In this document: positions 1,908-62,858 of the stretch, piece after piece
Layout: the number at the start of each line of letters is the position of its first letter
Position numbering within the stretch: position 1 is the first letter of the stretch
Assembly (NCBI GenBank): GCA_009783265.1
Contig: WRHM01000009.1
Location: 29,339-93,338, forward strand
DNA: 64,000 nucleotides
Reading direction: 5' to 3'
From: Oscillospiraceae bacterium
GTDB lineage: Bacteria > Bacillota > Clostridia > Oscillospirales > WRJC01
Position numbers and translations under genes: made by a program
The notes under the pieces: model-generated
The model's database searches: none
What the model saw: the letters and a program-made list of their open reading frames with translations, nothing else
Told to the model about the DNA's origin: nothing

Positions 1908-1933
1908 GGGCGGCCGCAAAGGTCGCCCCTATG
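1908..1933. terminator. Bidirectional terminator; member of the TAGGGGCG palindromic repeat family (reverse orientation)
   Basis: gggcggcc-gcaaa-ggtcgccc stem (8 bp, one G-U), with an A-run before and a T-run after. Lies between convergent genes. Confidence 0.7.
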
Positions 1934-1936
1934 TTT

Positions 1937-3316
1937 TTATTTTACCGGCGTTTGCCCGGCTTTGACAAGAGAGTTAGTATAATCCGGATACAGCCATTCT
2001 AAATTATTTCTGTCAAGCAATTTAAAGCTGCCGCCGTCGTCCCATATAATAGACGGTATTCCCAGTTCTTTTAATTTGACTATATAATAATCCGCCCATT
2101 TTATTATTTCGGCTTCGTTTGAATTACCGTCGGGCATAGTCCTGAATATCGCTCCTGTTTCACCCATAATAGTTGGAATATTATTTGATACAAAATATTT
2201 ATCTAAAATTTTCAGGACATTATTGAGATTAGAAGAAACGCTCCCGACTTTTAAATCAAAATACCAACTGAACCATTCGGAATCGTCGGGCGCGGTCACA
2301 AATCCCCACGGCTCGTAATAATGCACAGATGCGATTAATCTGTCTCTCGGGTCGTTGATTTTTAATTTTCCCGTTTCTTTATCTACAAACAATCCTATCC
2401 TGCCCTCTCCGTCGTTTGTATCCATTCCAACGCTCGCAAAATACGGCGTTACCATTAAGTGCCTGTCGGGATTTTTGCCTCTGCCCGCCCTTATTGTATC
2501 AACAAATGTCTGCTGTATAGCATTTAAAAAATTGCACTGTTCAGCCCAGATTTCTTTGGTTATATTATTTAGTCCCTCTGTTCTCGGTTCGTTTAGAGCC
2601 TCAAAAATCAAATGCTCGTCATAATCTTCAAACCGTTTGGCGATCTGCTCCCAGAGCTTTCCCATACGGTTTTTGAATTCCTGCTTTTCAGAATCCGTAA
2701 ACGGCCTGCTGCCGCCATCTTCTTCTATATGATAAAGCGTGAGCCAGCCACATTCCCAATTATCGCCGCTTTTGTAATCGTCATGATGAATATTTAAAAT
2801 ACAGAACATGCCGTTTTGTATCACATAATCCACAACTTCCTGCACTCTATCAAGCAATTCACCGCCGATTTTATAATCCGGTCCGGGCCCTGTGAATATA
2901 TACCATGTGACGGGGATTCTTACTGTATTGAATCCCGATTCTTTTATCTTGTCAATCATTTCTTTGGTCGTAACGGGATTACCCCACATTGTTTCCTGCT
3001 CCTGAGGGGAATTTATTGTTCCCCACGGGCGGCCGTTCCAGTGCGCGTCAAAAGTATTGCCGAGATTCCAGCCGGCAGATATTTTATGAACAAGTTCAAG
3101 CGAAGTGAGACTTCCGACATCTTCTCCGCCGGCTTTTTCAATTTCAGCTTCAATTATATTCCCGGTTTCTTTTGGTTTTTCTTTTTCCATATTATCAGTT
3201 TCCTCCGTTTCAGATTTTTCAATTTCGCCGTTAATATCGCATTTAGCCGCCGCCGTTACTGTGATTACGGCTAAAAGTATCAGTGACATAATAAATTTGA
3301 TTTTTTTGATTTTCAT
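1937..3316 (-). CDS. Glycoside hydrolase family 5 (cellulase/endoglucanase-like), secreted
   Basis: N-terminal signal/anchor. Motifs GWNLGNTFDA, VRIPVTW, FEALNEP (acid/base Glu) and GETG (nucleophile Glu). Confidence 0.85.
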   Translation of the reverse strand: MKIKKIKFIMSLILLAVITVTAAAKCDINGEIEKSETEETDNMEKEKPKETGNIIEAEIEKAGGEDVGSLTSLELVHKISAGWNLGNTFDAHWNGRPWGTINSPQEQETMWGNPVTTKEMIDKIKESGFNTVRIPVTWYIFTGPGPDYKIGGELLDRVQEVVDYVIQNGMFCILNIHHDDYKSGDNWECGWLTLYHIEEDGGSRPFTDSEKQEFKNRMGKLWEQIAKRFEDYDEHLIFEALNEPRTEGLNNITKEIWAEQCNFLNAIQQTFVDTIRAGRGKNPDRHLMVTPYFASVGMDTNDGEGRIGLFVDKETGKLKINDPRDRLIASVHYYEPWGFVTAPDDSEWFSWYFDLKVGSVSSNLNNVLKILDKYFVSNNIPTIMGETGAIFRTMPDGNSNEAEIIKWADYYIVKLKELGIPSIIWDDGGSFKLLDRNNLEWLYPDYTNSLVKAGQTPVK

Positions 3317-4271: not shown

Positions 4272-4298
4272 TGTAGGAGAGATTAGTAATCGCCCGTG
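4272..4298 (+). repeat. GC-rich palindromic element, copy a (tgtaggagagattagtaatcgcccgtg)
   Basis: Imperfect hairpin. Left member of an inverted pair with 4357-4382. Confidence 0.6.
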
Positions 4299-4356
4299 AA
4301 AAATATAAAATGTTTTTCGAATAAATAAAACAAATAGTTTTGATTTCATCAGATTT

Positions 4357-4382
4357 GCGGGCGATTGGTAATCGCCCCTACA
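4357..4382 (-). repeat. GC-rich palindromic element, copy b (rc: tgtaggggcgattaccaatcgcccgc)
   Basis: Its reverse complement matches copy a at about 21/25 positions. It is also self-palindromic (gggcgatt-gg-taatcgccc). Confidence 0.6.
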
Positions 4383-19635: not shown

Positions 19636-19677
19636 TTTATTTTTTATTTAAAATTATTCAGGAGTATTTATTAATTT

Positions 19678-19930
19678 ATGAAAAGATTAAAAGATTATCT
19701 ATTGAACATGAATCCAAATTCAACGACTTACGAAGAATTATATGAGGGTAAAATGTTAGTCTGGCCCGTTCCGCTTGATTCTGACCCCGAATATATATAC
19801 GACAGCACATATTGGTATACAGTATCTGAACAGGTTATTTTACACAAGGAGAATTCTATGAAAAGATTAAAAGATTATTTATTGAACATGAATCCAAATT
19901 CAACGACTTATGACGAGATATATGAAGGGC
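19678..19930 (+). repeat. Tandem duplication of the 5' 60-codon module of the ATPase gene (period 180 nt)
   Basis: 19678-19737 and 19858-19917 are about 58/60 identical (both encode MKRLKDYLLNMNPNSTTY). Similarity decays afterwards (DSTYWYTVSEQ vs DSTYLYETLEHEQ). Confidence 0.85.
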
Positions 19931-21777
19931 TGATGGCTATTCCGGGTCAACCCCCGACACCGGTAAACGACAGCACATATCTTTATGAAACATTAGAGCA
20001 TGAACAAATAGCGTTTAAAATTGACAGGACACATAAACTTGCACTCGATAAACCTACTATCACGATAAGCATACCTATAAAAATGTTAGATTTAACTCCG
20101 AAAGATTGCAGTCATGTAGCGGCAAGCGATTATATTTTACGGTCTGCAAAAAAATATTTCGACGAGTTAAACGAAGAAATCATAAACCGAAAACGTCCCG
20201 CGAAAGAAACCGGAAGATATTATATTTATTCGCCCGGCGGCGAAGTTTTAAAACGAAACTGCGTATATTTTCAGGACGTTGAGAGAAAATATTACAGGCT
20301 TCTCGGATATAGAAAAGATAAATCAAAAGTAAACAATCATTATTTAATATCAATCCCGTCGATGTGGGACGACGTTCCTGAACTGCAAAGACTGCCCGAA
20401 TTCTGCGTGAATATTATGATACAGGTGCAATTACCCAATAAGCAGTTCAAAAAAACGATAAAAATGCTCACGCGTGATTTGCCGGACGCTGTTGACAGAT
20501 TTATTTTAGAATTTAACGTACAGAAACTTCGCGCAGCAGTCGCGTTAAACAAAAAACAGGAAGAAATACGCGAATGGCTCAGACAAAGCGATTACTGCGC
20601 GTTTATCGCTAACGGCGCGATATTGCCCAGAAAAGGCAACTCTCCCCTGCCTGCCGAAAACGCAGTCCCGTTTAAGTCTCCCGAATGTGACGAAATTACA
20701 GTCTGCGGACTTTTGGGCATGGGAATAAAAAAAGGCGTGACGGTTGTCACGGGAGGGGGTTATTCCGGCAAAAGCACTTTACTCGACGCAATCTCAGCCG
20801 GAATTTATAATCATATAAAAGGCGATGGCAGGGAATTTGTCATAACTGATGATACCGCGATAAAAATTTCGGCTGAGGACGGTCGGAGCGTAAAAAACAT
20901 AAATCTTTCCCAGTTTATAAAATGGCTGCCAAACAACGGTGACGTTTCACATTTTTATACAGAACACGCGTCGGGTTCAACGTCTCAGGCAGCGAACATA
21001 ATCGAAGCCGTGAATTTCGGTGCGAAACTGTTTCTGATAGACGAAGATAAAAGCGCGACGAATTTTATGATACGCGACGACATGATGAAAGAGTTGATAA
21101 AACGCGAGCCGATTACGCCGTTTACAGACAGGGTCCGGCAGTTATACGGCGAAGCCGGAATATCGACGATACTTGTTGTCGGGGGCAGCGGCGAATATTT
21201 ATCAGTTGCGGACAATGTTATCATGATGGACGAATTTCACGCGTTAAACGCAACGGAGCAGGCGAAAGAAATTTATAAAAACGTGAAAAATATCAACGGT
21301 TCTGTAGGGGCGCGCATTGCGCGACCGCAAAATATTCCGGAAACGGACGACCAATGGTCGCCCCTACAATCAAATAAATGCGAATGGTTCTCTGAGCGCA
21401 GATTAATCACAGAAAAATTTACTTCATATCCCAAAGAGAGCGAAGACGCTTACAGCGGCACGGAACGCCTTGAGATTTCAGACATGGGATTTATAATAAT
21501 CGGCGACGAAAAAATAGACGTAAGAAATCTGCACAATTTTATCTCGTTCGCGCAGATTAACGCCGTCGGATATATGCTGAGATATTTGGAACTGTCGAGT
21601 AGAGAAGCAGTCAGCGACATACAAAAAATCGTCGATGATTTATATGACATAATCGAAAAAAAAGGGGTAGAGTCTATTCATTCGACGTTTTTTAATTGTG
21701 AACGCTGGCTTGATATGCCGCGAAAATGCGAGCTTTACGCCGTAATCAACCGAATGAGGTTTGTTGATTTTATATAA
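19678..21777 (+). CDS. ABC-class ATPase domain protein (COG3044-type 'predicted ATPase of the ABC class')
   Basis: Walker A VTGGGYSGKSTLLDAI, Walker B LFLIDEDKSATNFM, and GDGREFVITDDTAIKISAEDGRSV typical of the family. Alternative start at 19858 has a better RBS (AAGGAG). Confidence 0.75.
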   Translation: MKRLKDYLLNMNPNSTTYEELYEGKMLVWPVPLDSDPEYIYDSTYWYTVSEQVILHKENSMKRLKDYLLNMNPNSTTYDEIYEGLMAIPGQPPTPVNDSTYLYETLEHEQIAFKIDRTHKLALDKPTITISIPIKMLDLTPKDCSHVAASDYILRSAKKYFDELNEEIINRKRPAKETGRYYIYSPGGEVLKRNCVYFQDVERKYYRLLGYRKDKSKVNNHYLISIPSMWDDVPELQRLPEFCVNIMIQVQLPNKQFKKTIKMLTRDLPDAVDRFILEFNVQKLRAAVALNKKQEEIREWLRQSDYCAFIANGAILPRKGNSPLPAENAVPFKSPECDEITVCGLLGMGIKKGVTVVTGGGYSGKSTLLDAISAGIYNHIKGDGREFVITDDTAIKISAEDGRSVKNINLSQFIKWLPNNGDVSHFYTEHASGSTSQAANIIEAVNFGAKLFLIDEDKSATNFMIRDDMMKELIKREPITPFTDRVRQLYGEAGISTILVVGGSGEYLSVADNVIMMDEFHALNATEQAKEIYKNVKNINGSVGARIARPQNIPETDDQWSPLQSNKCEWFSERRLITEKFTSYPKESEDAYSGTERLEISDMGFIIIGDEKIDVRNLHNFISFAQINAVGYMLRYLELSSREAVSDIQKIVDDLYDIIEKKGVESIHSTFFNCERWLDMPRKCELYAVINRMRFVDFI

Positions 21778-27681: not shown

Positions 27682-27754
27682 AAATTAAGTCGCTATTTAT
27701 TTTAGGGGCGGGGTTTTCCCGCCCTAAGTTTATAATTTACGAGGTATTTTACCA

Positions 27755-29130: not shown

Positions 29131-29151
29131 GTAGGGGACGCCGTCCCCTAC
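29131..29151. repeat. GC-rich palindrome gtaggggacg/ccgtcccctac (TAGGGG family-like), overlapping the DUF2493 stop codon
   Basis: Near-perfect 10-bp-arm palindrome with no T-run on either side. Confidence 0.6.
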
Positions 29152-49636: not shown

Positions 49637-50563
49637 TTAATGCTCCTGTGGGTTCACATGAACCATGCAGTGCTTTACTCTGGGATTTACTTTTTCCACT
49701 GCGTCATGAATATTTTCGGCTATATCATGAGTTTGATTTAAACTCAGATTACCGTCTGCGCTGATTTCTATGTCAACGTATATTTTATCGCCAAAAAGCC
49801 TCGTCTTTAACTGGTCGATCTTAAAATCTCCCTGATTTTGTATTGCCTCGCGTATTTCTTCGATTGTTTCGTCGCTTGCAGTTCTATCAGTCATTTTGCC
49901 TATAGCGTCCATAAAAATATTATACGCCGCTTTTACTATAAATACACAGATAATAATACATGCCGCCGAATCCAGTATAGGAAACCCCAATCGCGCGCCG
50001 AGTATCCCCACAAAGCTGCCCACTGATGATAAAGCGTCGGAACGGTGGTGCCATGCCCCAGCCATCAACGCAGTCGAATTTATTTTTTTCGCGAAAATTT
50101 TCGTATACCAGAACAAGCCTTCTTTGACCGCAATCGAAACCACAGCCGCAATCAGTGCAAGCAGACCGGGTATAGCCAAACTTTGATAATCGCCTGAAAA
50201 AATATTTTTTGCTCCGCCGTATCCGATAACAAATCCGGTAGCGGCAAGAATTGCCGCGAGAATAATCGCCACAACGCATTCAAACCGTTCATGACCATAA
50301 GGATGCTCTTTGTCTGATTTTTTATTTGACAGTTTTATGCCGACCAAGACAATCGCCCCGCCTAAAATATCTGACATAGAATGGACCGCGTCTGATACCA
50401 TCGCCATCGAGCCGGCAATAATTCCGGCTGATAATTTAAAAGCTGTTAAAATTATATTGAACAAAATGCCGACAAAACTCACCTGTACGGCAATTTGTTC
50501 ATTGCTTTTACTGCTTTTATTTTTTTCGTTTGTATTTTTTGTATCGTTTATATCGTTTGTCAT
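49637..50563 (-). CDS. Cation diffusion facilitator (CDF) family metal efflux transporter (CzcD/FieF-like)
   Basis: Six TM with HSMSD and HHRSD metal-site motifs and a C-terminal cytoplasmic domain. GGAGGT RBS. Confidence 0.85.
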   Translation of the reverse strand: MTNDINDTKNTNEKNKSSKSNEQIAVQVSFVGILFNIILTAFKLSAGIIAGSMAMVSDAVHSMSDILGGAIVLVGIKLSNKKSDKEHPYGHERFECVVAIILAAILAATGFVIGYGGAKNIFSGDYQSLAIPGLLALIAAVVSIAVKEGLFWYTKIFAKKINSTALMAGAWHHRSDALSSVGSFVGILGARLGFPILDSAACIIICVFIVKAAYNIFMDAIGKMTDRTASDETIEEIREAIQNQGDFKIDQLKTRLFGDKIYVDIEISADGNLSLNQTHDIAENIHDAVEKVNPRVKHCMVHVNPQEH

Positions 50564-50671: not shown

Positions 50672-50735
50672 AAAAATAAAAAAAGCACACCAATAATGGA
50701 ACAATATTACTGTCCCACAGATGTGCGTGTAAATC
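50672..50735 (-). terminator. Intrinsic terminator forming the expression platform of the riboswitch-like leader
   Basis: GCACAUC...GGUGUGC stem followed by U7AU5. Its 5' arm overlaps the 3' strand of leader helix P4. Confidence 0.55.
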
Positions 50736-50805
50736 ACCTGCTGCCGCATTATCGCGACCCAGCCCCATAAACATTAAAATTAAAAGTTTATCGCCTGATC
50801 AGTTT
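50709..50805 (-). promoter_or_regulatory. Candidate NiCo (czcD-motif) riboswitch aptamer
   Basis: Four helices can be drawn: P1 ACUG/CAGU; P2 AUAAAC/GUUUAU; P3 GUCGC/GCGGC; P4 CAGGUG/CAUCUG. Junction strings are CUGGG, GCAGCAGG and CUGUGGGACAG. It sits between a consensus promoter and a CDF gene. Confidence 0.55.
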
Positions 50806-50855
50806 ATTTTGTACTGTAATTTATATGCAGTGCAAATAGTAGCCCTATATTTATT

Positions 50856-55432: not shown

Positions 55433-56056
55433 ATGCCTTTGAGCGCTGAAGAAAAACTTGATAACTTCGCGAAAGAAGCCATAACCGACGCAAAGCATAT
55501 AAGCCAAGAAATAGACCGGCAGACAAAATTTGAATTTCAGGAAAAAACTAAAGACGGCAGGAAAAAAATCTTTGCCCAGACACAGGACTATATTCAAAAA
55601 GAGACAGAAAAGATAAAAAAAGAAAAAAGTATGGAGACATCGCAGGCTAATATAAAAACAAGACAGGATTATTTTAAATACGCAGACTCTATATCGTCCC
55701 GCGTGTTTGAATCTGTGAACACAAAACTCAAAAATTTCACAGAATCAAATGATTACGAAGATTATCTTTTTCAGTCCTGCAAAAATGTCATAGAAAAAAA
55801 CGGGGTGACCTTAGGCATATTTTATATGCCCGGAGACGAAGAGATTATGACTGTGAAAATCAAAAATAAACTTGACGGATTATTTGATATTTCGCAGGTT
55901 GAATTTATAAAAGACGAAACTATAAAAACCGGCGGGCTGCGCTTTTTTGACCATGTAAAAAATATATTGATAAACGATGTATTCGACGAAAAGACAGAGC
56001 GTGCAAAAGAATTATTGAATTCTATAATCGGCCCGCACTTTACGGCTGTGAGATAG
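55433..56056 (+). CDS. ntpE: V-type ATPase subunit E
   Basis: 207 aa with an N-terminal long charged helix and a C-terminal globular domain. Operon position supports it. Confidence 0.75.
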   Translation: MPLSAEEKLDNFAKEAITDAKHISQEIDRQTKFEFQEKTKDGRKKIFAQTQDYIQKETEKIKKEKSMETSQANIKTRQDYFKYADSISSRVFESVNTKLKNFTESNDYEDYLFQSCKNVIEKNGVTLGIFYMPGDEEIMTVKIKNKLDGLFDISQVEFIKDETIKTGGLRFFDHVKNILINDVFDEKTERAKELLNSIIGPHFTAVR

Positions 56057-56078: not shown

Positions 56079-56105
56079 ATAGGGGTGACCCTTGCGGTCG
56101 CCTTA
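56079..56105 (+). repeat. TAGGGGCG-family palindromic element (ataggggtgacccttgcggtcgcctta)
   Basis: ggtgacc-cttgc-ggtcgcc hairpin. Inverted partner lies at 56156-56182. Confidence 0.65.
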
Positions 56106-56131
56106 TTAACAAACATAAGAGGTGCAATAAC

Positions 56132-57934
56132 TTGAACAATGAAAGTGAAAGCAACGGCGGGCGGCCGCAAGGGTCTCCCCTGCGAATATATGGGATAAAC
56201 GGCCCTGTCGTGACTATATCCGGGCATACGGATCTGAGTATGCAGGAAATGGTGTTTGTCGGGGGGAAAAAACTGATAGGGGAAGTTATAAATATATCAG
56301 ACGATAAAACTACTATACAGGTTTACGAAAATACGACGGGGCTTTATTCGGGCGAGCCTGTGGAATCGACAGGTTATCCGATACGCGCTACTCTGGGCCC
56401 CGGTATGCTGTCGAATATTTATGACGGAATCCAAAGGCCTTTAAAAGCTATAGAAAATATATCGGGATATTATATTAAAACAGGGATAGATGTCTCCAGC
56501 ATAGATTATGAAAAAAAATGGGATATAAAAATTTTAGCAAACGAGGGGCAAAAAGTAAATCCCGGAGATATATACGCCGAATGCGACGAAACGTCTGTGA
56601 TAAAACATAAATTTATGATACCCGGCAATATTTCCGGTATTATAGAATCGGTTGTTTTAAACGGCAAATATTGCGTAAACGACGAGATTTTAAAAATAAA
56701 AACAGAATCCGGCGAAATTGCGAGTATTAATTTAACCGAAAAATGGGCGATAAGAAAGCCCCGGCCGGTTAAAGAACGTCTGGAGCCTAAAACTCCGTTG
56801 ATTACCGGGCAAAGGGTAATAGATACTCTTTTCCCGATAGCTAAAGGCGGAGCCGCCGCAATCCCCGGCGGATTCGGCACGGGCAAAACTATGCTCCAGC
56901 ATCAACTGGCGAAATGGAGCGACGCGGATATAATAGTATATGTCGGCTGCGGTGAGCGGGGCAACGAGATGACGCAGGTATTAGAAGAATTTTCTGAGCT
57001 TGTTGACCCGAAAACCGGCAAAAGTATGCTTGAGCGGACTGTTTTGATTGCAAACACTTCAAATATGCCTGTCGCGGCACGCGAGGCATCGATTTATACG
57101 GGGATAACGATAGCCGAATATTACAGGGATATGGGTTATCATGTTGCGATAATGGCGGATTCTACGTCAAGATGGGCTGAGGCGTTGAGGGAAATATCGG
57201 GACGGCTTGAAGAAATGCCCGCCGAAGAAGGATTCCCGGCTTATCTGCCGTCGAGATTATCGGCGTTTTATGAGAGAAGCGGGATAGTCGAAAATCTGAA
57301 CGGCAGTATCGGTTCTCTGACAATAATCGGGGCTGTGTCCCCTCAGGGCAACGATTTTTCGGAGCCTGTCACCCAGAATACAAAAAGATTTATCAGATGT
57401 TTTTGGGCATTAGAAAAATCTTTGGCTTATTCGCGGCATTACCCCGCGATAAACTGGACTACAAGTTACAGCGAATATCTTGTTGAATTAGACGGCTGGT
57501 TCACTGAAAACGTAAATCCTGAGTTTAACAAATGCCGCGCGATAATAAAAAATATACTGAACGATGAAAATCAATTAATGGAAATCGTAAAATTAATCGG
57601 CAGCGATTTGCTTGCCGACGACCAGAAATTGATTTTGGAGACTGCGCGGGTTATAAGATCGGGATTTTTACAGCAGAACGCCACGCATCAGAACGATTCA
57701 TATTCACCTATCGAAAAACAGTATCTCATACTTGAAGTTATAATAAAATTATACGACAGGGCAAAAGAATTAATATCGCGCTCAGTTCCTGTTTCGCAAT
57801 TAAAAGAGAGCGGTGTGTTTGACATGATAATACGCGCGAAGTACGAGATACCCAACGATAAATTGGAGATGTTCGGCGAATTGTTGGATAGTATAGAGAA
57901 GAAGATAAAAGAAATCGAGGATAGATATAATTGA
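56132..57934 (+). CDS. ntpA: V-type ATPase catalytic subunit A
   Basis: Walker [16 protein letters not shown] and [16 protein letters not shown] start with an AGAGGTG RBS. Codons 9-17 are encoded by a palindromic repeat copy. Confidence 0.9.
56156..56182 (-). repeat. TAGGGGCG-family palindromic element inside the 5' end of ntpA (21/23 identical to 1908-1930)
   Basis: gggcggccgcaagggtctcccct vs gggcggccgcaaaggtcgcccct. Its reverse complement is 19/21 complementary-compatible with 56082-56102. Confidence 0.7.
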
Positions 57935-59391: not shown

Positions 59392-60714
59392 ATGAAGTAC
59401 AATCTTGAAATTAAAATAGTGCCGAAAGAACATTATATAAAAGTTAGCGGAAATATAAAAAATATAGAAAACGATATAAATTTATTTTATCTCAACGAAA
59501 ATTTTACGCTTAATAAATTAACAAACGGGCAAAACGATATTAAATATATACATGATAAAAATAAACCTCACCCTTTATATGACTTGACCTCGCGCCCTGT
59601 AATTTTGCAAACTGCTGTAAAAGAATTAGAGTTTGAATATGACGGGTATATTCCTGAAATAACAAACGATATAAACCAAATTGACGAAGATATTGTAGAG
59701 CTTTCAGGTTATTCAGGCTGGTATCCGAAAGATATTATATATACAGAAAATACCGAAACGCTTGAACCTCACATTAAAAACGGAGATTTTGCGTTTGAAT
59801 TGAATATCGAATTGCCAAACGAGTATATTTTTGCGGCTAACGCGGAAATAAAAAATATTGAAAAATCATCAAATATTACAATATATAATATTTCTTCATA
59901 CGGTGACGATTTTGATATTGCTCTTTTTGCCTCGAATAAAGTAGTAAAGATTGAAAAAAGCTTAAACGGAATTTATTTTTCTTCGATATGCCCATTTATT
60001 ATGGAAAAGAAAAACACGCTTAAATTAGATAATTTAATTGAGGGGCAAAAAATAATAACAGAGTTATTAGGCGAGCCAATCAAAAAGCAACCAACTTGTT
60101 TTATTAATCGTCCACGCGGCGGCTGGGGGTATGCACGAACTGCATTTGTTTCAATGCCCGGAATAACAGACGAGAATGACGAAAACTTAAAAGATTTGTC
60201 AGAAAAATCCATGATACTTAGTATCGGCGGAGATTTACACGAACTTTCTCATTTTTGGTGGGGCATTGCTTCGGGAATTGAGCCGGAAGATTGGATAAAC
60301 GAAAGCGGTGCGGAATTTACAATGCTTGCTGTTTTGAAAGATATGATTAAACTGGATGATTATAAAACTTTAATAGAAAAAAACGGATATATTAAACATA
60401 TAAATGAACTTGAATCAGAAGCTGCCATTTGCGAAACTAAAACAGACGAATGGGACGCAAGATATGTAAACAGATATGAAAAAACCGCAATTATGTATAT
60501 TGGCGCGGAAATTCGTTTCGGCAGAAAAAATCTTTTTGAATTTTTAAAAGAATTTTACAATCAGAATAAAACAGAATGTAATGCGACTACTGATAAATTT
60601 TTAGATATATGCGAAAAAGTTTTAGGAAAAGACTCAAGAGAATATTTTAATTGGCTATTATATGCAAAAGGCTGGAAAAATATTGATATAGAAAAAGATA
60701 TATTAAAATATTAG
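59392..60714 (+). CDS. M1-like gluzincin metallopeptidase (cassette gene P) inserted between ntpB and ntpD
   Basis: HELSHFWWG...WINESGAEF (HExxH plus a downstream WxNE Glu ligand). Own RBS AAAGGAG. Confidence 0.65.
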   Translation: MKYNLEIKIVPKEHYIKVSGNIKNIENDINLFYLNENFTLNKLTNGQNDIKYIHDKNKPHPLYDLTSRPVILQTAVKELEFEYDGYIPEITNDINQIDEDIVELSGYSGWYPKDIIYTENTETLEPHIKNGDFAFELNIELPNEYIFAANAEIKNIEKSSNITIYNISSYGDDFDIALFASNKVVKIEKSLNGIYFSSICPFIMEKKNTLKLDNLIEGQKIITELLGEPIKKQPTCFINRPRGGWGYARTAFVSMPGITDENDENLKDLSEKSMILSIGGDLHELSHFWWGIASGIEPEDWINESGAEFTMLAVLKDMIKLDDYKTLIEKNGYIKHINELESEAAICETKTDEWDARYVNRYEKTAIMYIGAEIRFGRKNLFEFLKEFYNQNKTECNATTDKFLDICEKVLGKDSREYFNWLLYAKGWKNIDIEKDILKY

Positions 60715-61423: not shown

Positions 61424-61452
61424 TACAGGGGCGATTAATAATCGCCCCTACG
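61424..61452. repeat. TAGGGGCG-family palindrome (ctacaggggcgattaataatcgcccctacg); probable terminator of the ntp operon
   Basis: aggggcgatta-a-taatcgcccct perfect arms. Same arm sequence as 4272-4382. Confidence 0.7.
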
Positions 61453-62831: not shown

Positions 62832-62858
62832 TGTAGGGGCGGATTTTGCGGTCGCCCG
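62832..62858 (+). repeat. TAGGGGCG-family element (tgtaggggcggattttgcggtcgcccg)
   Basis: Shares TAGGGGCG...TTGCGGTCGCC with 56079-56105 and with the reverse complement of 1908-1933. Confidence 0.6.

What the first reader, a model, noticed from the sequence alone, without database searches (positions are those of the whole stretch)
56079..56182. Inverted pair of GC-rich palindromic elements brackets the RBS and start codon of ntpA; one copy is translated
The two copies are element f (56079-56105, ataggggtgacccttgcggtcgcctta) and element g (56156-56182). Element g is 21/23 identical to the terminator element at 1908-1930. They are in inverted orientation, 50 nt apart.

The interval between them holds the AGAGGTG RBS and the TTG start of the catalytic A subunit. 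Copy g lies inside codons 9-17 (GGRPQGSPL) of an N-terminal extension of about 19 aa, which typical A subunits lack (they start near ...G.I..V.GPVV).

Each copy can fold on its own. Alternatively, f can pair with g (about 19/21 bp) to enclose the translation-initiation region in a loop.

This suggests either a repeat-element insertion that re-created the 5' end of ntpA, or a translational control element setting the A-subunit stoichiometry.
Basis: partly seen in the sequence, partly recalled or inferred. Interest (0 to 1): 0.55.

Follow-up and report, generated by a model that had tools for sequence, protein, structure and literature searches.

The report
REP repeat pair straddling ntpA start
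Two copies of a small, probably mobile GC-rich hairpin repeat (a REP-type element) flank the ribosome-binding site and start codon of the V-type ATPase A-subunit gene, and one copy is read as eight extra amino acids in a dispensable N-terminal tail; this looks like a tolerated hitch-hiker, not a purpose-built control switch.

Summary
A third copy lies at 1908-1932 and a degenerate fourth at 62833-62857. Three matches were found where none is expected by chance.

They belong to a GTAG-tagged REP-like family, about 12 units in this window. Units are usually paired head-out, like REPINs, and every such pair tested folds into one long hairpin.

The RBS (AGAGGTG) and TTG start are ancestral. Relatives without the repeats have the same RBS, spacing and start codon. 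g lies in a 36-nt in-frame insertion in a hypervariable N-terminal tail. No canonical in-frame start follows g before the conserved first beta-strand, so g is almost certainly translated (GRPQGSPL).

The f+g pair recurs in a relative whose NtpA is 89% identical; g alone recurs at 85%. g drifts at a near-neutral rate, while f is better conserved. The predicted 23-bp f:g helix leaves the RBS and start in an open loop.

A RAYT-like transposase gene carrying the same repeat in frame exists in an AT-rich metagenome contig, but it is not linked to this genome.

Verdict: a new member of a known kind, of modest interest.

The parts
56079..56104 (+). Element f: a REP unit (ATAG head, degenerate from GTAG; stem GGGGTGACC / GGTCGCCTT; loop CTTGC) in the ntpE-ntpA spacer. 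Its stem starts 25 nt after the ntpE stop.
   Evidence: The L081 orthologue is a perfect GTAGGGGCGACCCTTGCGGTCGCCC. No T-run follows it, and the terminator scan does not flag it.
56159..56183 (-). Element g: the same REP in inverted orientation (head GCAG on the - strand, degenerate from GTAG). It lies in frame in ntpA codons 10-17 and is read as GRPQGSPL.
   Evidence: Orthologous copies in L081 (GRPQGLPL) and L082 (GRTQGTPL) keep CTAC, which is GTAG on the other strand.
56105..56158 (+). Spacer of the head-out pair. It holds the RBS AGAGGTG (56118-56124), the TTG start (56132-56134) and codons 2-9. It becomes the loop if f pairs with g.
   Evidence: The RBS and start are orthologous to those of relatives that lack the repeats.
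56144..56179 (+). A 36-nt (12-codon) in-frame insertion relative to the short-N-terminus relatives ([12 protein letters not shown]). Its right part is element g. L083 and L087 keep only the left 21 nt.
   Evidence: DNA alignment A2; N-termini.
56132..57934 (+). ntpA, the V/A-type ATPase catalytic subunit A, 600 aa, TTG start.
   Evidence: Gene callers on three other assemblies call the same 600-aa product. NCBI PGAP called M37 (564 aa).
55433..56056 (+). ntpE (subunit E), the upstream gene in the same operon.
1908..1932 (-). Third copy of the same REP subfamily. It lies between convergent genes, with T-rich tracts on both sides, so it is a likely bidirectional terminator.
62833..62857 (+). Fourth, degenerate copy of the subfamily (GTAGGGGCGGATTTTGCGGTCGCCC), 27 nt after the SHMT gene stop.
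21304..21367 (.). Head-out pair from the same GTAG superfamily with different cores. It lies in frame inside an ABC-class ATPase gene and is read as VGARIARPQNIPETDDQWSPLQ.
4272..4382 (.). Head-out pair from the same superfamily (GATT/AATC cores) in an intergenic spacer.
61429..61451 (-). Single GTAG hairpin unit between ntpD and the SHMT gene.
29131..29151 (.). Short 'double-foot' unit, GTAGGGGACGCCGTCCCCTAC, in an intergenic spacer.
27703..27726 (.). TTAG-headed palindromic unit between two ABC-transporter genes. Family membership is weaker.

Best explanation
f and g are two copies of a GTAG-tagged repetitive extragenic palindrome (REP). They are arranged as a head-out ('HH') dimer, i.e. a REPIN-like doublet.

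**Shown**
- The family is dispersed through this genome and its relatives, mostly as such doublets.
- f occupies the usual REP position just downstream of a stop codon (that of ntpE).
- g sits in frame inside a 12-codon insertion in the hypervariable tail that precedes the first beta-strand of NtpA.
- The RBS and TTG start between them are ancestral.
- g is shared with two related lineages and is drifting.

**Inferred**
- The units were seeded on single-stranded DNA by a RAYT-type HUH tyrosine transposase that recognises GTAG plus the hairpin.
- The two arms arrived separately around a pre-existing initiation region.
- g is translated as GRPQGSPL and is harmless because the N-terminus is exposed and unconstrained.
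- In the mRNA, f folds first as a local hairpin. The f:g helix can form only on untranslated transcripts and is melted by ribosomes.
- The net effect on NtpA output is small. If f does anything, it acts as a 3' hairpin that buffers the upstream ntpI-K-F-E segment against exonucleases. It is not a switch for A-subunit stoichiometry.
For: **Family identity**
- 3 matches against 0 expected.
- 9 stringent TAGGG+GC-hairpin units in the window against 0.8 expected, with a maximum of 4 in 200 simulations.
- Relatives' loci are full of GTAG+hairpin units, mostly as inverted head-out pairs 20-130 nt apart.
- In a metagenome scan, 124 of 128 matches to the core are preceded by GT, so the GTAG tag is conserved although it was not part of the query.
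- The architecture matches the HH dimers described in PMC3733652.
- Every doublet tested folds as one long hairpin, z -4 to -10.

**Ancestral start**
- RBS, spacing and start codon align with relatives that lack f and/or g.

**Translation of g**
- TTG at 56132 is the first ATG/GTG/TTG after the preceding in-frame stop, and reading the sequence shows the next canonical in-frame start is the GTG at V27, so it is the only canonical in-frame start upstream of the conserved core.
- Homology to solved A subunits begins at residue 18.
- The frame stays open through length-variable copies in three lineages (600, 599 and 597 aa).

**Age and drift**
- f+g are present in L081 (89% aa identity) and g in L082 (85%).
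- The first 18 codons are 65/65/41% identical by codon position, against 90/95/64% gene-wide.
- g is 18/24 identical, with 4/8 at its third positions. f is 22/24 identical.

**No occlusion**
- Mean unpaired probability over positions -20 to +15 is 0.64 (window) and 0.73 (L081), against 0.42-0.57 in relatives without the pair.

**Tolerance of in-frame REPs**
- A second doublet is translated inside an ABC-class ATPase linker. Orthologues carry other REP-coded inserts, or none, at the same spot.

**Candidate mobilising enzyme**
- L124 ORF 951-1562 matches NCBIfam REP_Tyr_transpos (E = 7e-19), and E. coli TnpA-REP 4er8 is its only PDB hit.
- It carries the exact f-type REP in frame between its HUH and Y motifs. 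PMC6006769 reports this trait for one RAYT subclass.
Against: - No RAYT gene was found in the 64-kb window (Pfam on 50 ORFs) or in the relatives' loci (precomputed Pfam; phmmer). The L124 RAYT is not linked to this genome and scores below NCBIfam's curated cut-off (68 vs 80 bits).
- Copy number in the whole genome is extrapolated from one window.
- The heads of the window's own copies are degenerate (ATAG, GCAG), not GTAG.
- g is patchy on an unbootstrapped NJ tree. Either several losses or more than one gain must be assumed.
- L082's copy shows one apparently compensatory stem change (C-G to A-T). This could mean the hairpin is maintained.
- The f:g helix is very stable and is retained in two lineages. 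A regulatory role is therefore not excluded.
- No expression data of any kind were available.
Confidence: 0.75

Rival explanations
1. The pair is an exapted RNA control element. The 23-bp f:g helix loops out the initiation region, or creates an RNase III site. It would tune NtpA synthesis or uncouple the ntpI-K-F-E and ntpA-B mRNA segments.
For: - The helix is the predicted minimum-free-energy structure in the window (-55.7 kcal/mol, z = -5.2) and in L081 (-52.5, z = -3.75).
- In L081 the local g hairpin has decayed (-7.3, z = -0.15) while f:g pairing persists.
- The pair is kept in two lineages 11% apart in NtpA protein sequence.
- REP dimers are proposed to be endoribonuclease substrates in PMC3733652.
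Against: - Most close relatives lack the pair, including the sister of L081.
- g evolves at about the synonymous rate, and no compensatory f/g changes are seen between the window and L081 (sequence comparison).
- The same fold is generic to all doublets of the family at unrelated sites.
- The RBS and start stay unpaired in the model.
- An attenuator in front of the subunit needed in three copies runs against the stoichiometric requirement (inference).
Confidence: 0.12
2. The repeat insertion supplied a new 5' end (RBS and/or start codon) for ntpA.
For: - The RBS and start lie exactly between the two arms.
- NtpA is 12 aa longer than in its nearest relatives.
Against: - The same AAGAGGTG, 7-9 nt, (G/T)TG, AAC arrangement is present in relatives without g (L085, L086) or without either element (L088).
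- Spacers of other doublets of the family are unrelated in sequence.
Confidence: 0.03
3. g is not translated. The true start lies downstream: PGAP's ATG at M37, GTG at V27, or a non-canonical CTG/ATA right after g. Both arms would then be 5'-UTR elements.
For: - NCBI's pipeline called a 564-aa product starting at M37.
- PMC3733652 warns that many N-terminal REPs reflect start misannotation.
- An AAGGG inside g lies 6 nt before CTG at 56180 (read from the sequence).
Against: - Starts at V27 or M37 would delete the conserved first beta-strand (IYGINGPVV). This strand aligns to all solved A subunits from residue 18 and is conserved in all homologues.
- CTG is replaced by CTA in L081 and L082.
- The strong RBS with correct spacing is conserved upstream.
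- The frame is kept open across g despite indels in three lineages.
Confidence: 0.05
4. The elements are ordinary stem-loops that arose independently (terminator-like hairpins), not copies of a mobile family.
For: - The 1908 copy looks like a bidirectional terminator.
- GC-rich hairpins are common at gene ends.
Against: - 21-23 of 23 positions are identical among copies, including loop bases.
- The GTAG tag is conserved.
- The doublet architecture recurs.
- Copies lie inside coding regions.
- f has no T-run.
Confidence: 0.02

Closest known systems
GTAG-tagged REPs, HH dimers and REPINs (Di Nocera et al. 2013, PMC3733652; Bertels & Rainey 2011, PMC3116915; Nunvar et al. 2010, PMC2817692)
   Same: - A 20-40 nt GC-rich imperfect palindrome with a 5' GTAG tag.
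- Dispersed copies, mostly just downstream of stop codons or between convergent genes.
- Inverted head-out pairs 20-100 nt apart that fold into one long hairpin.
- G-U pairs on the transcribed strand.
- Several stem variants per genome.
- Occasional intragenic copies.
   Different: - The host is an AT-rich Oscillospiraceae (Clostridia) MAG. The 2013 survey lists GTAG REPs only in Proteobacteria, Cyanobacteria, Chloroflexi and the PVC superphylum.
- The cognate RAYT is not demonstrated for this genome.
- The pair brackets a functional RBS and start, with one arm coding.
- The window's own copies have degenerate heads.
Rickettsia palindromic elements (RPE) and intragenic REPs of Opitutus terrae (as summarised in PMC3733652)
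   Same: Palindromic repeats inserted in frame into protein-coding genes, including N-termini. They add short peptide segments at tolerant surface positions. N-terminal RPE-1-decorated proteins are reported to be expressed.
   Different: - RPE-1 is much longer and belongs to the CGTC or other families, not the GTAG family.
- Here the insert is a 23-25 nt unit plus a 12-nt tail, and its partner arm is intergenic.
REP/BIME hairpins in E. coli and Salmonella operons (mRNA stabilisation and differential expression within operons; cited as background in PMC3733652 and PMC6006769)
   Same: An intercistronic REP hairpin inside a polycistronic operon, positioned after an upstream stop codon. It could protect upstream mRNA from 3'-5' decay.
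   Different: - No expression data exist here.
- f lacks a T-run and is not followed by a known processing site.
- This proposed function is inference only.
RAYT / TnpA-REP subclass with REPs inserted in its own gene (Quentin et al. 2018, PMC6006769)
   Same: L124 ORF 951-1562 has HUH (NHIH) and Y (YIISNP) motifs. It matches NCBIfam REP_Tyr_transpos and PDB 4er8. [quoted passage not shown]
   Different: - It was found on a 2.1-kb metagenome contig that is not linked to the window's genome.
- It scores below the curated equivalog cut-off.
- Its activity is untested.

Membership tests
REP (repetitive extragenic palindrome), GTAG super-family | Short (20-40 nt) GC-rich imperfect palindrome able to form a stem-loop | tested here: met
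   8-9 bp stems with 5-nt loops. Energies: f -13.6, g -14.7, the 1908 copy -17.4, L081 f' -17.3 kcal/mol.
REP (repetitive extragenic palindrome), GTAG super-family | Unpaired GT[AG]G tetranucleotide 0-2 nt 5' of the hairpin foot | tested here: met
   - GTAG is present in both L081 copies, in L082, and in most units of the relatives.
- 124 of 128 metagenome matches have GT before AGGGG.
- The window's own f, g and 1908 copies are degenerate (ATAG, GCAG, ATAG).
REP (repetitive extragenic palindrome), GTAG super-family | Many dispersed copies per genome, predominantly extragenic and near 3' ends of genes | tested here: inconclusive
   - About 12 units in 64 kb: 9 by the stringent scan against 0.8 expected, plus g, the degenerate 4272 arm and the 29131 unit.
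- 4 are of the f/g subfamily.
- 3 of the 12 are intragenic.
- The whole genome was not available, so the total copy number is extrapolated.
REPIN / HH dimer | Two REPs in inverted orientation with GTAG ends outside, separated by a short spacer, folding into one long hairpin | tested here: met
   f-g has a 55-nt spacer and a 23-position helix. The same holds for five other doublets.
REPIN / HH dimer | The doublet is the replicating unit (the spacer is conserved among copies) | tested here: not met
   The f-g spacer is the ancestral RBS/start region. Spacers of other doublets are unrelated in sequence.
REP-RAYT system | A cognate single-copy RAYT (TnpA-REP) gene in the same genome, typically flanked by the REPs | not testable with these tools
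   - None among 50 window ORFs or in the relatives' loci.
- A RAYT homologue carrying the identical REP in frame exists on metagenome contig L124, but it cannot be assigned to this genome.
In-frame intragenic palindromic elements (RPE-like) | Insert length is a multiple of three, the frame is kept, and the host protein's homologues lack the segment | tested here: met
   A 36-nt insert relative to L085, L086 and L088. The frame is open in three lineages.
In-frame intragenic palindromic elements (RPE-like) | The insert-encoded peptide is actually present in the protein | not testable with these tools
   Inferred from the lack of any other canonical start before the conserved core. No proteomic or ribosome-profiling data were available.
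Intrinsic terminator | GC-rich hairpin followed by a T-run | tested here: not met
   f is followed by TTATTAACAAAC and the scan does not flag it. The 1908 copy does have T-rich tracts on both sides.
Known cis-regulatory RNA (Rfam) | Match to a curated covariance model | tested here: not met
   No match at gathering score in the region. The only match below it is RsaJ at 15 bits against a threshold of 100.

The most novel reading that the evidence does not exclude
The f:g helix has been co-opted. On transcripts not yet engaged by ribosomes, it forms a 23-bp double-stranded stem that either presents the ntpA RBS and start in an insulated open loop or serves as an RNase III processing site. Either way, a selfish REP doublet would set the ratio of catalytic A subunit to the upstream stalk and membrane subunits. 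Retention of the pair in two lineages, while g's own hairpin decays, would be the footprint of that selection.
Probability: 0.1. Interest if true: 0.55.

Novelty: new member of a known kind. Interest (0 to 1): 0.3.

Why it matters
- **Host range.** It documents GTAG-type REP/REPIN-like repeats in an uncultured, AT-rich Oscillospiraceae lineage. In the two surveys read here, one listed GTAG REPs only in other phyla, the other never uses the word Firmicutes, and two of my three further literature searches on REPs in Firmicutes/Clostridia returned nothing relevant.
- **Coding insertions.** These repeats repeatedly land in frame inside essential or conserved genes. Examples are the NtpA N-terminus and an ABC-class ATPase linker.
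- **Annotation.** The repeat at the 5' end coincides with a mis-set start in NCBI's annotation: a 564-aa product that lacks the conserved first beta-strand. REP-encoded peptides ([25 protein letters not shown]) are a recurring source of odd N-termini, odd linkers and probably spurious small ORFs in metagenome-derived proteins.
- **Test case.** The locus is a clean natural experiment. Relatives with both arms, one arm or none could show whether a REP doublet around an initiation region affects expression.

Tried and rejected
- **Genome-collection scan** with NtpA. Close relatives were recovered instead through the protein database and exact-protein contig look-ups.
- **Third protein search** with the N-terminal 112 aa. 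It returned only short fragments and no further g-bearing NtpA. Covariation statistics on f:g were therefore impossible, with only two lineages carrying both arms.
- **Crude HUH/Y regular expression** for RAYT. It found nothing and missed the L124 gene because its HUH motif is NHIHG. phmmer with E. coli RayT found it.
- **Pfam scan of 50 window ORFs**. No Y1 transposase was found.
- **Literature searches** for the repeat sequence or its peptides and for REP/RAYT in Firmicutes or Clostridia. Nothing relevant turned up; one apparent sequence hit was a PCR primer.
- **Rfam**. No family covers the region.
- **f as an intrinsic terminator.** Rejected because it has no T-run.
- **Assembly artefact.** Rejected because the region is identical in four assemblies.
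- **Insertion of the doublet as one unit carrying its own spacer.** Rejected because the spacer is the orthologous RBS/start region.
Full report
**1. The observation**

- A search with the 23-nt consensus GGGCGGCCGCAAGGGTCGCCCCT, allowing 3 mismatches, finds exactly three sites: 1908-1930 (+), 56081-56103 (-, element f) and 56159-56181 (+, element g). None is found in 100 dinucleotide-preserving shuffles.
- AGAGGTG (56118-56124) lies 7 nt before TTG at 56132, which opens a 600-aa ORF. This ORF is a V/A-type ATPase catalytic A subunit.
- g occupies codons 10-17 (GRPQGSPL).
- The segment 56000-56260 is identical in three further independent assemblies, one JGI and two ENA. It is therefore not an assembly artefact.
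- The source is an uncultured Oscillospiraceae bacterium (NCBI protein MCL1859590.1).

**2. What the elements are**

- Scanning the window and eight loci from close relatives shows many units of one design: GTAG, then GG(G), then an 8-9 bp GC-rich stem with a 3-7 nt loop. A loosely conserved tail (about GCAAATTTGATG..CGTTGG) often follows.
- A stringent scan (TAGGG plus a stem of at least 7 bp with at least 5 G-C pairs) finds 9 units in the window. First-order Markov simulations give 0.8 on average and at most 4 in 200 runs.
  - g, a degenerate arm at 4272 and a short double-foot unit at 29131 bring the total to about 12.
  - A degenerate fourth copy of the f/g subfamily lies at 62833-62857.
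- Units mostly occur as inverted pairs with the GTAG ends outside, 20-130 nt apart. This is the 'HH dimer' of Di Nocera et al. (PMC3733652) and the REPIN of Bertels and Rainey.
- Five such pairs, from the window and from relatives, each fold into one long hairpin with z-scores of -4 to -10. The f:g helix is therefore a generic property of the family, not a feature of the ntpA initiation region.
- Singletons sit where REPs usually sit:
  - the 1908 copy between convergent genes, with T-rich tracts on both sides;
  - 62833 at 27 nt after a stop codon;
  - f at 25 nt after the ntpE stop.
Their GC content ranges from 34 to 70%.
- 124 of the 128 matches are preceded by GT, which was not part of the query. 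The GTAG tag is thus a real, conserved part of the element.

**3. The start codon is ancestral and g is an in-frame insertion**

- Junction DNA was recovered for eight relatives.
- AAGAGGTG, 7-9 nt, (G/T)TG, AAC is present in the window, L081, L082, L085, L086 and L088. Among these, L085 and L086 lack g and L088 lacks both elements.
- In the MAFFT alignment the window carries 36 extra nucleotides (56144-56179, [12 protein letters not shown]) after codon 4, relative to the short forms ([16 protein letters not shown]).
- L081 (NtpA 89% identical) has both arms in the same layout: f' is a perfect GTAGGGGCGACCCTTGCGGTCGCCC, and g' is read as GRPQGLPL.
- L082 (85% identical) has g only (GRTQGTPL). 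Its flank is homologous, and it has no intergenic spacer at all.
- L083 and L087 keep only the left 21 nt of the insertion (MNQKSENNSGG-LK..., MNRENRIGNG-ELK...). They look like partial deletions that removed the loop and one arm.
- Other relatives have REP-free extensions of other lengths (P0012, P0018, P0019, P0241). The N-terminal tail is hypervariable in this clade.
- On an NJ tree without bootstraps, g-bearing lineages are interspersed with g-free ones. Either one old insertion was lost several times, or the site was hit more than once. I cannot decide between these.

**4. Is g translated?**

- TTG at 56132 is the first ATG/GTG/TTG after the preceding in-frame stop.
- After g, the next canonical in-frame starts are GTG at V27 and ATG at M37. 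NCBI's pipeline chose M37, giving 564 aa.
- Both would remove the strand IYGINGPVV. This strand is conserved in all homologues, and alignment to every solved A subunit begins there, at query residue 18. Prokaryotic structures have only 2-6 residues before it.
- A CTG right after g is CTA in L081 and L082.
- The reading frame stays open through g in three lineages despite indels (600, 599 and 597 aa).
- I therefore infer that g is translated. No proteomic or ribosome-profiling data exist to show it directly.

**5. Constraint**

- Between the window and L081, ntpA is 90/95/64% identical at codon positions 1/2/3. The first 18 codons are only 65/65/41% identical.
- g is 18/24 identical, with 4 of 8 third positions conserved. 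That is no better than the synonymous background.
- In L081 the synonymous changes have wrecked g's own hairpin (-7.3 kcal/mol, z = -0.15).
- f is 22/24 identical. The binomial probability of this at the 64% background is about 0.003 (my own calculation).
- The two stem substitutions in the window's f are C-to-T changes. They turn G-C pairs into G-U pairs on the mRNA strand.
- The intergenic arm thus looks maintained as a hairpin, either by selection or by homogenisation within the family. The coding arm is decaying. If the f:g duplex were the selected structure, g should be conserved too.
- One caveat: L082's copy has one apparently compensatory stem change (C-G to A-T).

**6. RNA level**

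- The f:g helix is the predicted minimum-free-energy fold in the window (-55.7 kcal/mol, z = -5.2) and in L081 (-52.5, z = -3.75).
- It leaves the RBS and start in a loop of about 55 nt.
- Mean unpaired probability over -20 to +15 is 0.64 (window) and 0.73 (L081), against 0.42-0.57 in four relatives without the pair.
- f has no T-run and is not terminator-like.
- No Rfam family matches the region.
- My reading, which is inference:
  - f folds locally as soon as it is transcribed.
  - Ribosomes starting at 56132 keep g single-stranded.
  - The long helix forms only on idle transcripts.
  - The effect on expression is small.

**7. Tolerance of in-frame copies is a pattern**

- The doublet at 21304-21367 lies inside an ABC-class ATPase gene. 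It sits in the linker between the P-loop domain (ending at residue 538) and the MRB1590_C domain (starting at residue 602), and is read as VGARIARPQNIPETDDQWSPLQ.
- Orthologues at 70-80% identity differ at the same place:
  - the same insert (P0121);
  - different REP-like inserts (VGDGVLDVP in P0123 and P0124; VGDAAHGVPL in P0126 and P0136);
  - no insert at all (P0122, P0127).

**8. Mobilising enzyme**

- No Y1/RAYT gene is present among 50 window ORFs or in the relatives' loci.
- phmmer with E. coli RayT against all ORFs of the held loci found one hit, L124 ORF 951-1562. L124 is a 2.1-kb contig with 36% GC.
- The protein has NHIH and YIISNP motifs. It matches NCBIfam REP_Tyr_transpos over nearly the whole model (E = 7e-19; 68 bits, below the cut-off of 80). 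E. coli TnpA-REP (4er8) is its only PDB match.
- Between its HUH and Y motifs it carries, in frame, the exact f-type REP (VGATLAVAP) and a second unit in opposite orientation (RAGASPAPT).
- Quentin et al. (PMC6006769) report this trait for one RAYT subclass.
- This makes RAYT-mediated spread the most plausible mechanism. The contig cannot be assigned to the window's genome.

**9. Comparison with what is known, and verdict**

- Everything tested fits GTAG REPs in HH-dimer arrangement.
- In-frame intragenic REPs are known from Rickettsia RPEs and Opitutus terrae.
- What is new is the host lineage. The 2013 survey did not list Firmicutes, and the 2018 RAYT survey never uses the word Firmicutes and mentions Clostridia only for IS200-type transposases. 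Two further literature searches on REPs in Firmicutes/Clostridia returned nothing relevant. It is also new to see a doublet that straddles a working initiation region with one arm coding.
  - 're-created the 5' end' is contradicted;
  - 'translational control element' is unsupported but not excluded (about 0.1).
- I classify the finding as a new member of a known kind, of modest interest.

Noticed in passing
window 21304-21367 (inside ORF 19678-21777): A second head-out REP pair is translated in frame (VGARIARPQNIPETDDQWSPLQ) in the interdomain linker of an ABC-class ATPase. At the same spot, orthologues carry the same insert, different REP-like inserts (VGDGVLDVP, VGDAAHGVPL) or none.
   Followed up: yes
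window 19677-19748 and 19857-19928: A 180-nt tandem duplication (72-nt cores 92% identical) at the 5' end of the ABC-class ATPase gene. It repeats the N-terminus MKRLKDYLLNMNPNSTTY... in frame, so the ORF has two candidate starts 60 codons apart.
   Followed up: partly
window 50708-50812 (-): A NiCo (nickel/cobalt) riboswitch (71 bits, gathering score 37), just upstream of a cation-efflux (CDF) gene at 49640-50563 (-) and next to the start of the V-ATPase operon.
   Followed up: no
window 59392-60714; L081, L084, L085, L086, L088: A 440-aa ORF with no Pfam match sits between ntpB and ntpD. Relatives carry unrelated cargo at the A/B/D junctions: methyltransferase plus GNAT; sigma-70 plus DUF4097; HTH proteins; PIN plus zeta-like kinase plus phosphofructokinase. 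The V-ATPase operon of this clade is a hot spot for gene insertion.
   Followed up: partly
window 56132-56242; NCBI MCL1859590.1: NCBI's annotation starts NtpA at M37 (564 aa). This cuts off the conserved first beta-strand. Three other assemblies' gene calls use the TTG start (600 aa).
   Followed up: yes
L089-L208 (metagenome contigs): The identical 25-mer GTAGGGGCGACCCTTGCGGTCGCCC occurs in at least 120 contigs with 34-70% GC. Judging from the contig names and my memory of JGI sample identifiers (only the human-gut contig, L168, is labelled as such), these come from soil, sediment, termite-gut and human-gut samples. Flanks are conserved within each lineage, and other GTAG hairpins (e.g. GGGCAGGGGCAAGCCCTGCCCCTAC) lie nearby. 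One REP core is shared across very different genomes.
   Followed up: partly
L124 951-1562: A RAYT-like (TnpA-REP) gene next to a tRNA-Leu on a 36%-GC contig. It carries two REP units in frame between its HUH and Y motifs, one of them identical to the f-type REP.
   Followed up: yes
L081 6686-6710 vs L085 9577-9604 and L086 9922-9947: The orthologous site in the ntpE-ntpA spacer holds REP units with completely different stem-loop cores in different relatives, while GTAG and parts of the flanks are kept. L087 has four units in a 360-nt spacer. L084 has unrelated hairpins and a different RBS and ATG. Turnover at this site is rapid.
   Followed up: partly
L082 2474-2505: In this relative the ntpE stop codon is lost. 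ntpE runs on through the RBS and overlaps the ntpA start (TTGA), leaving no intergenic spacer and no f element, although g is retained.
   Followed up: no
window 1908-1932: The REP copy between the convergent AraC/APH-like gene (622-1881, +) and the GH5 cellulase gene (1937-3316, -) has T-rich tracts on both sides. It probably serves as a bidirectional terminator.
   Followed up: partly
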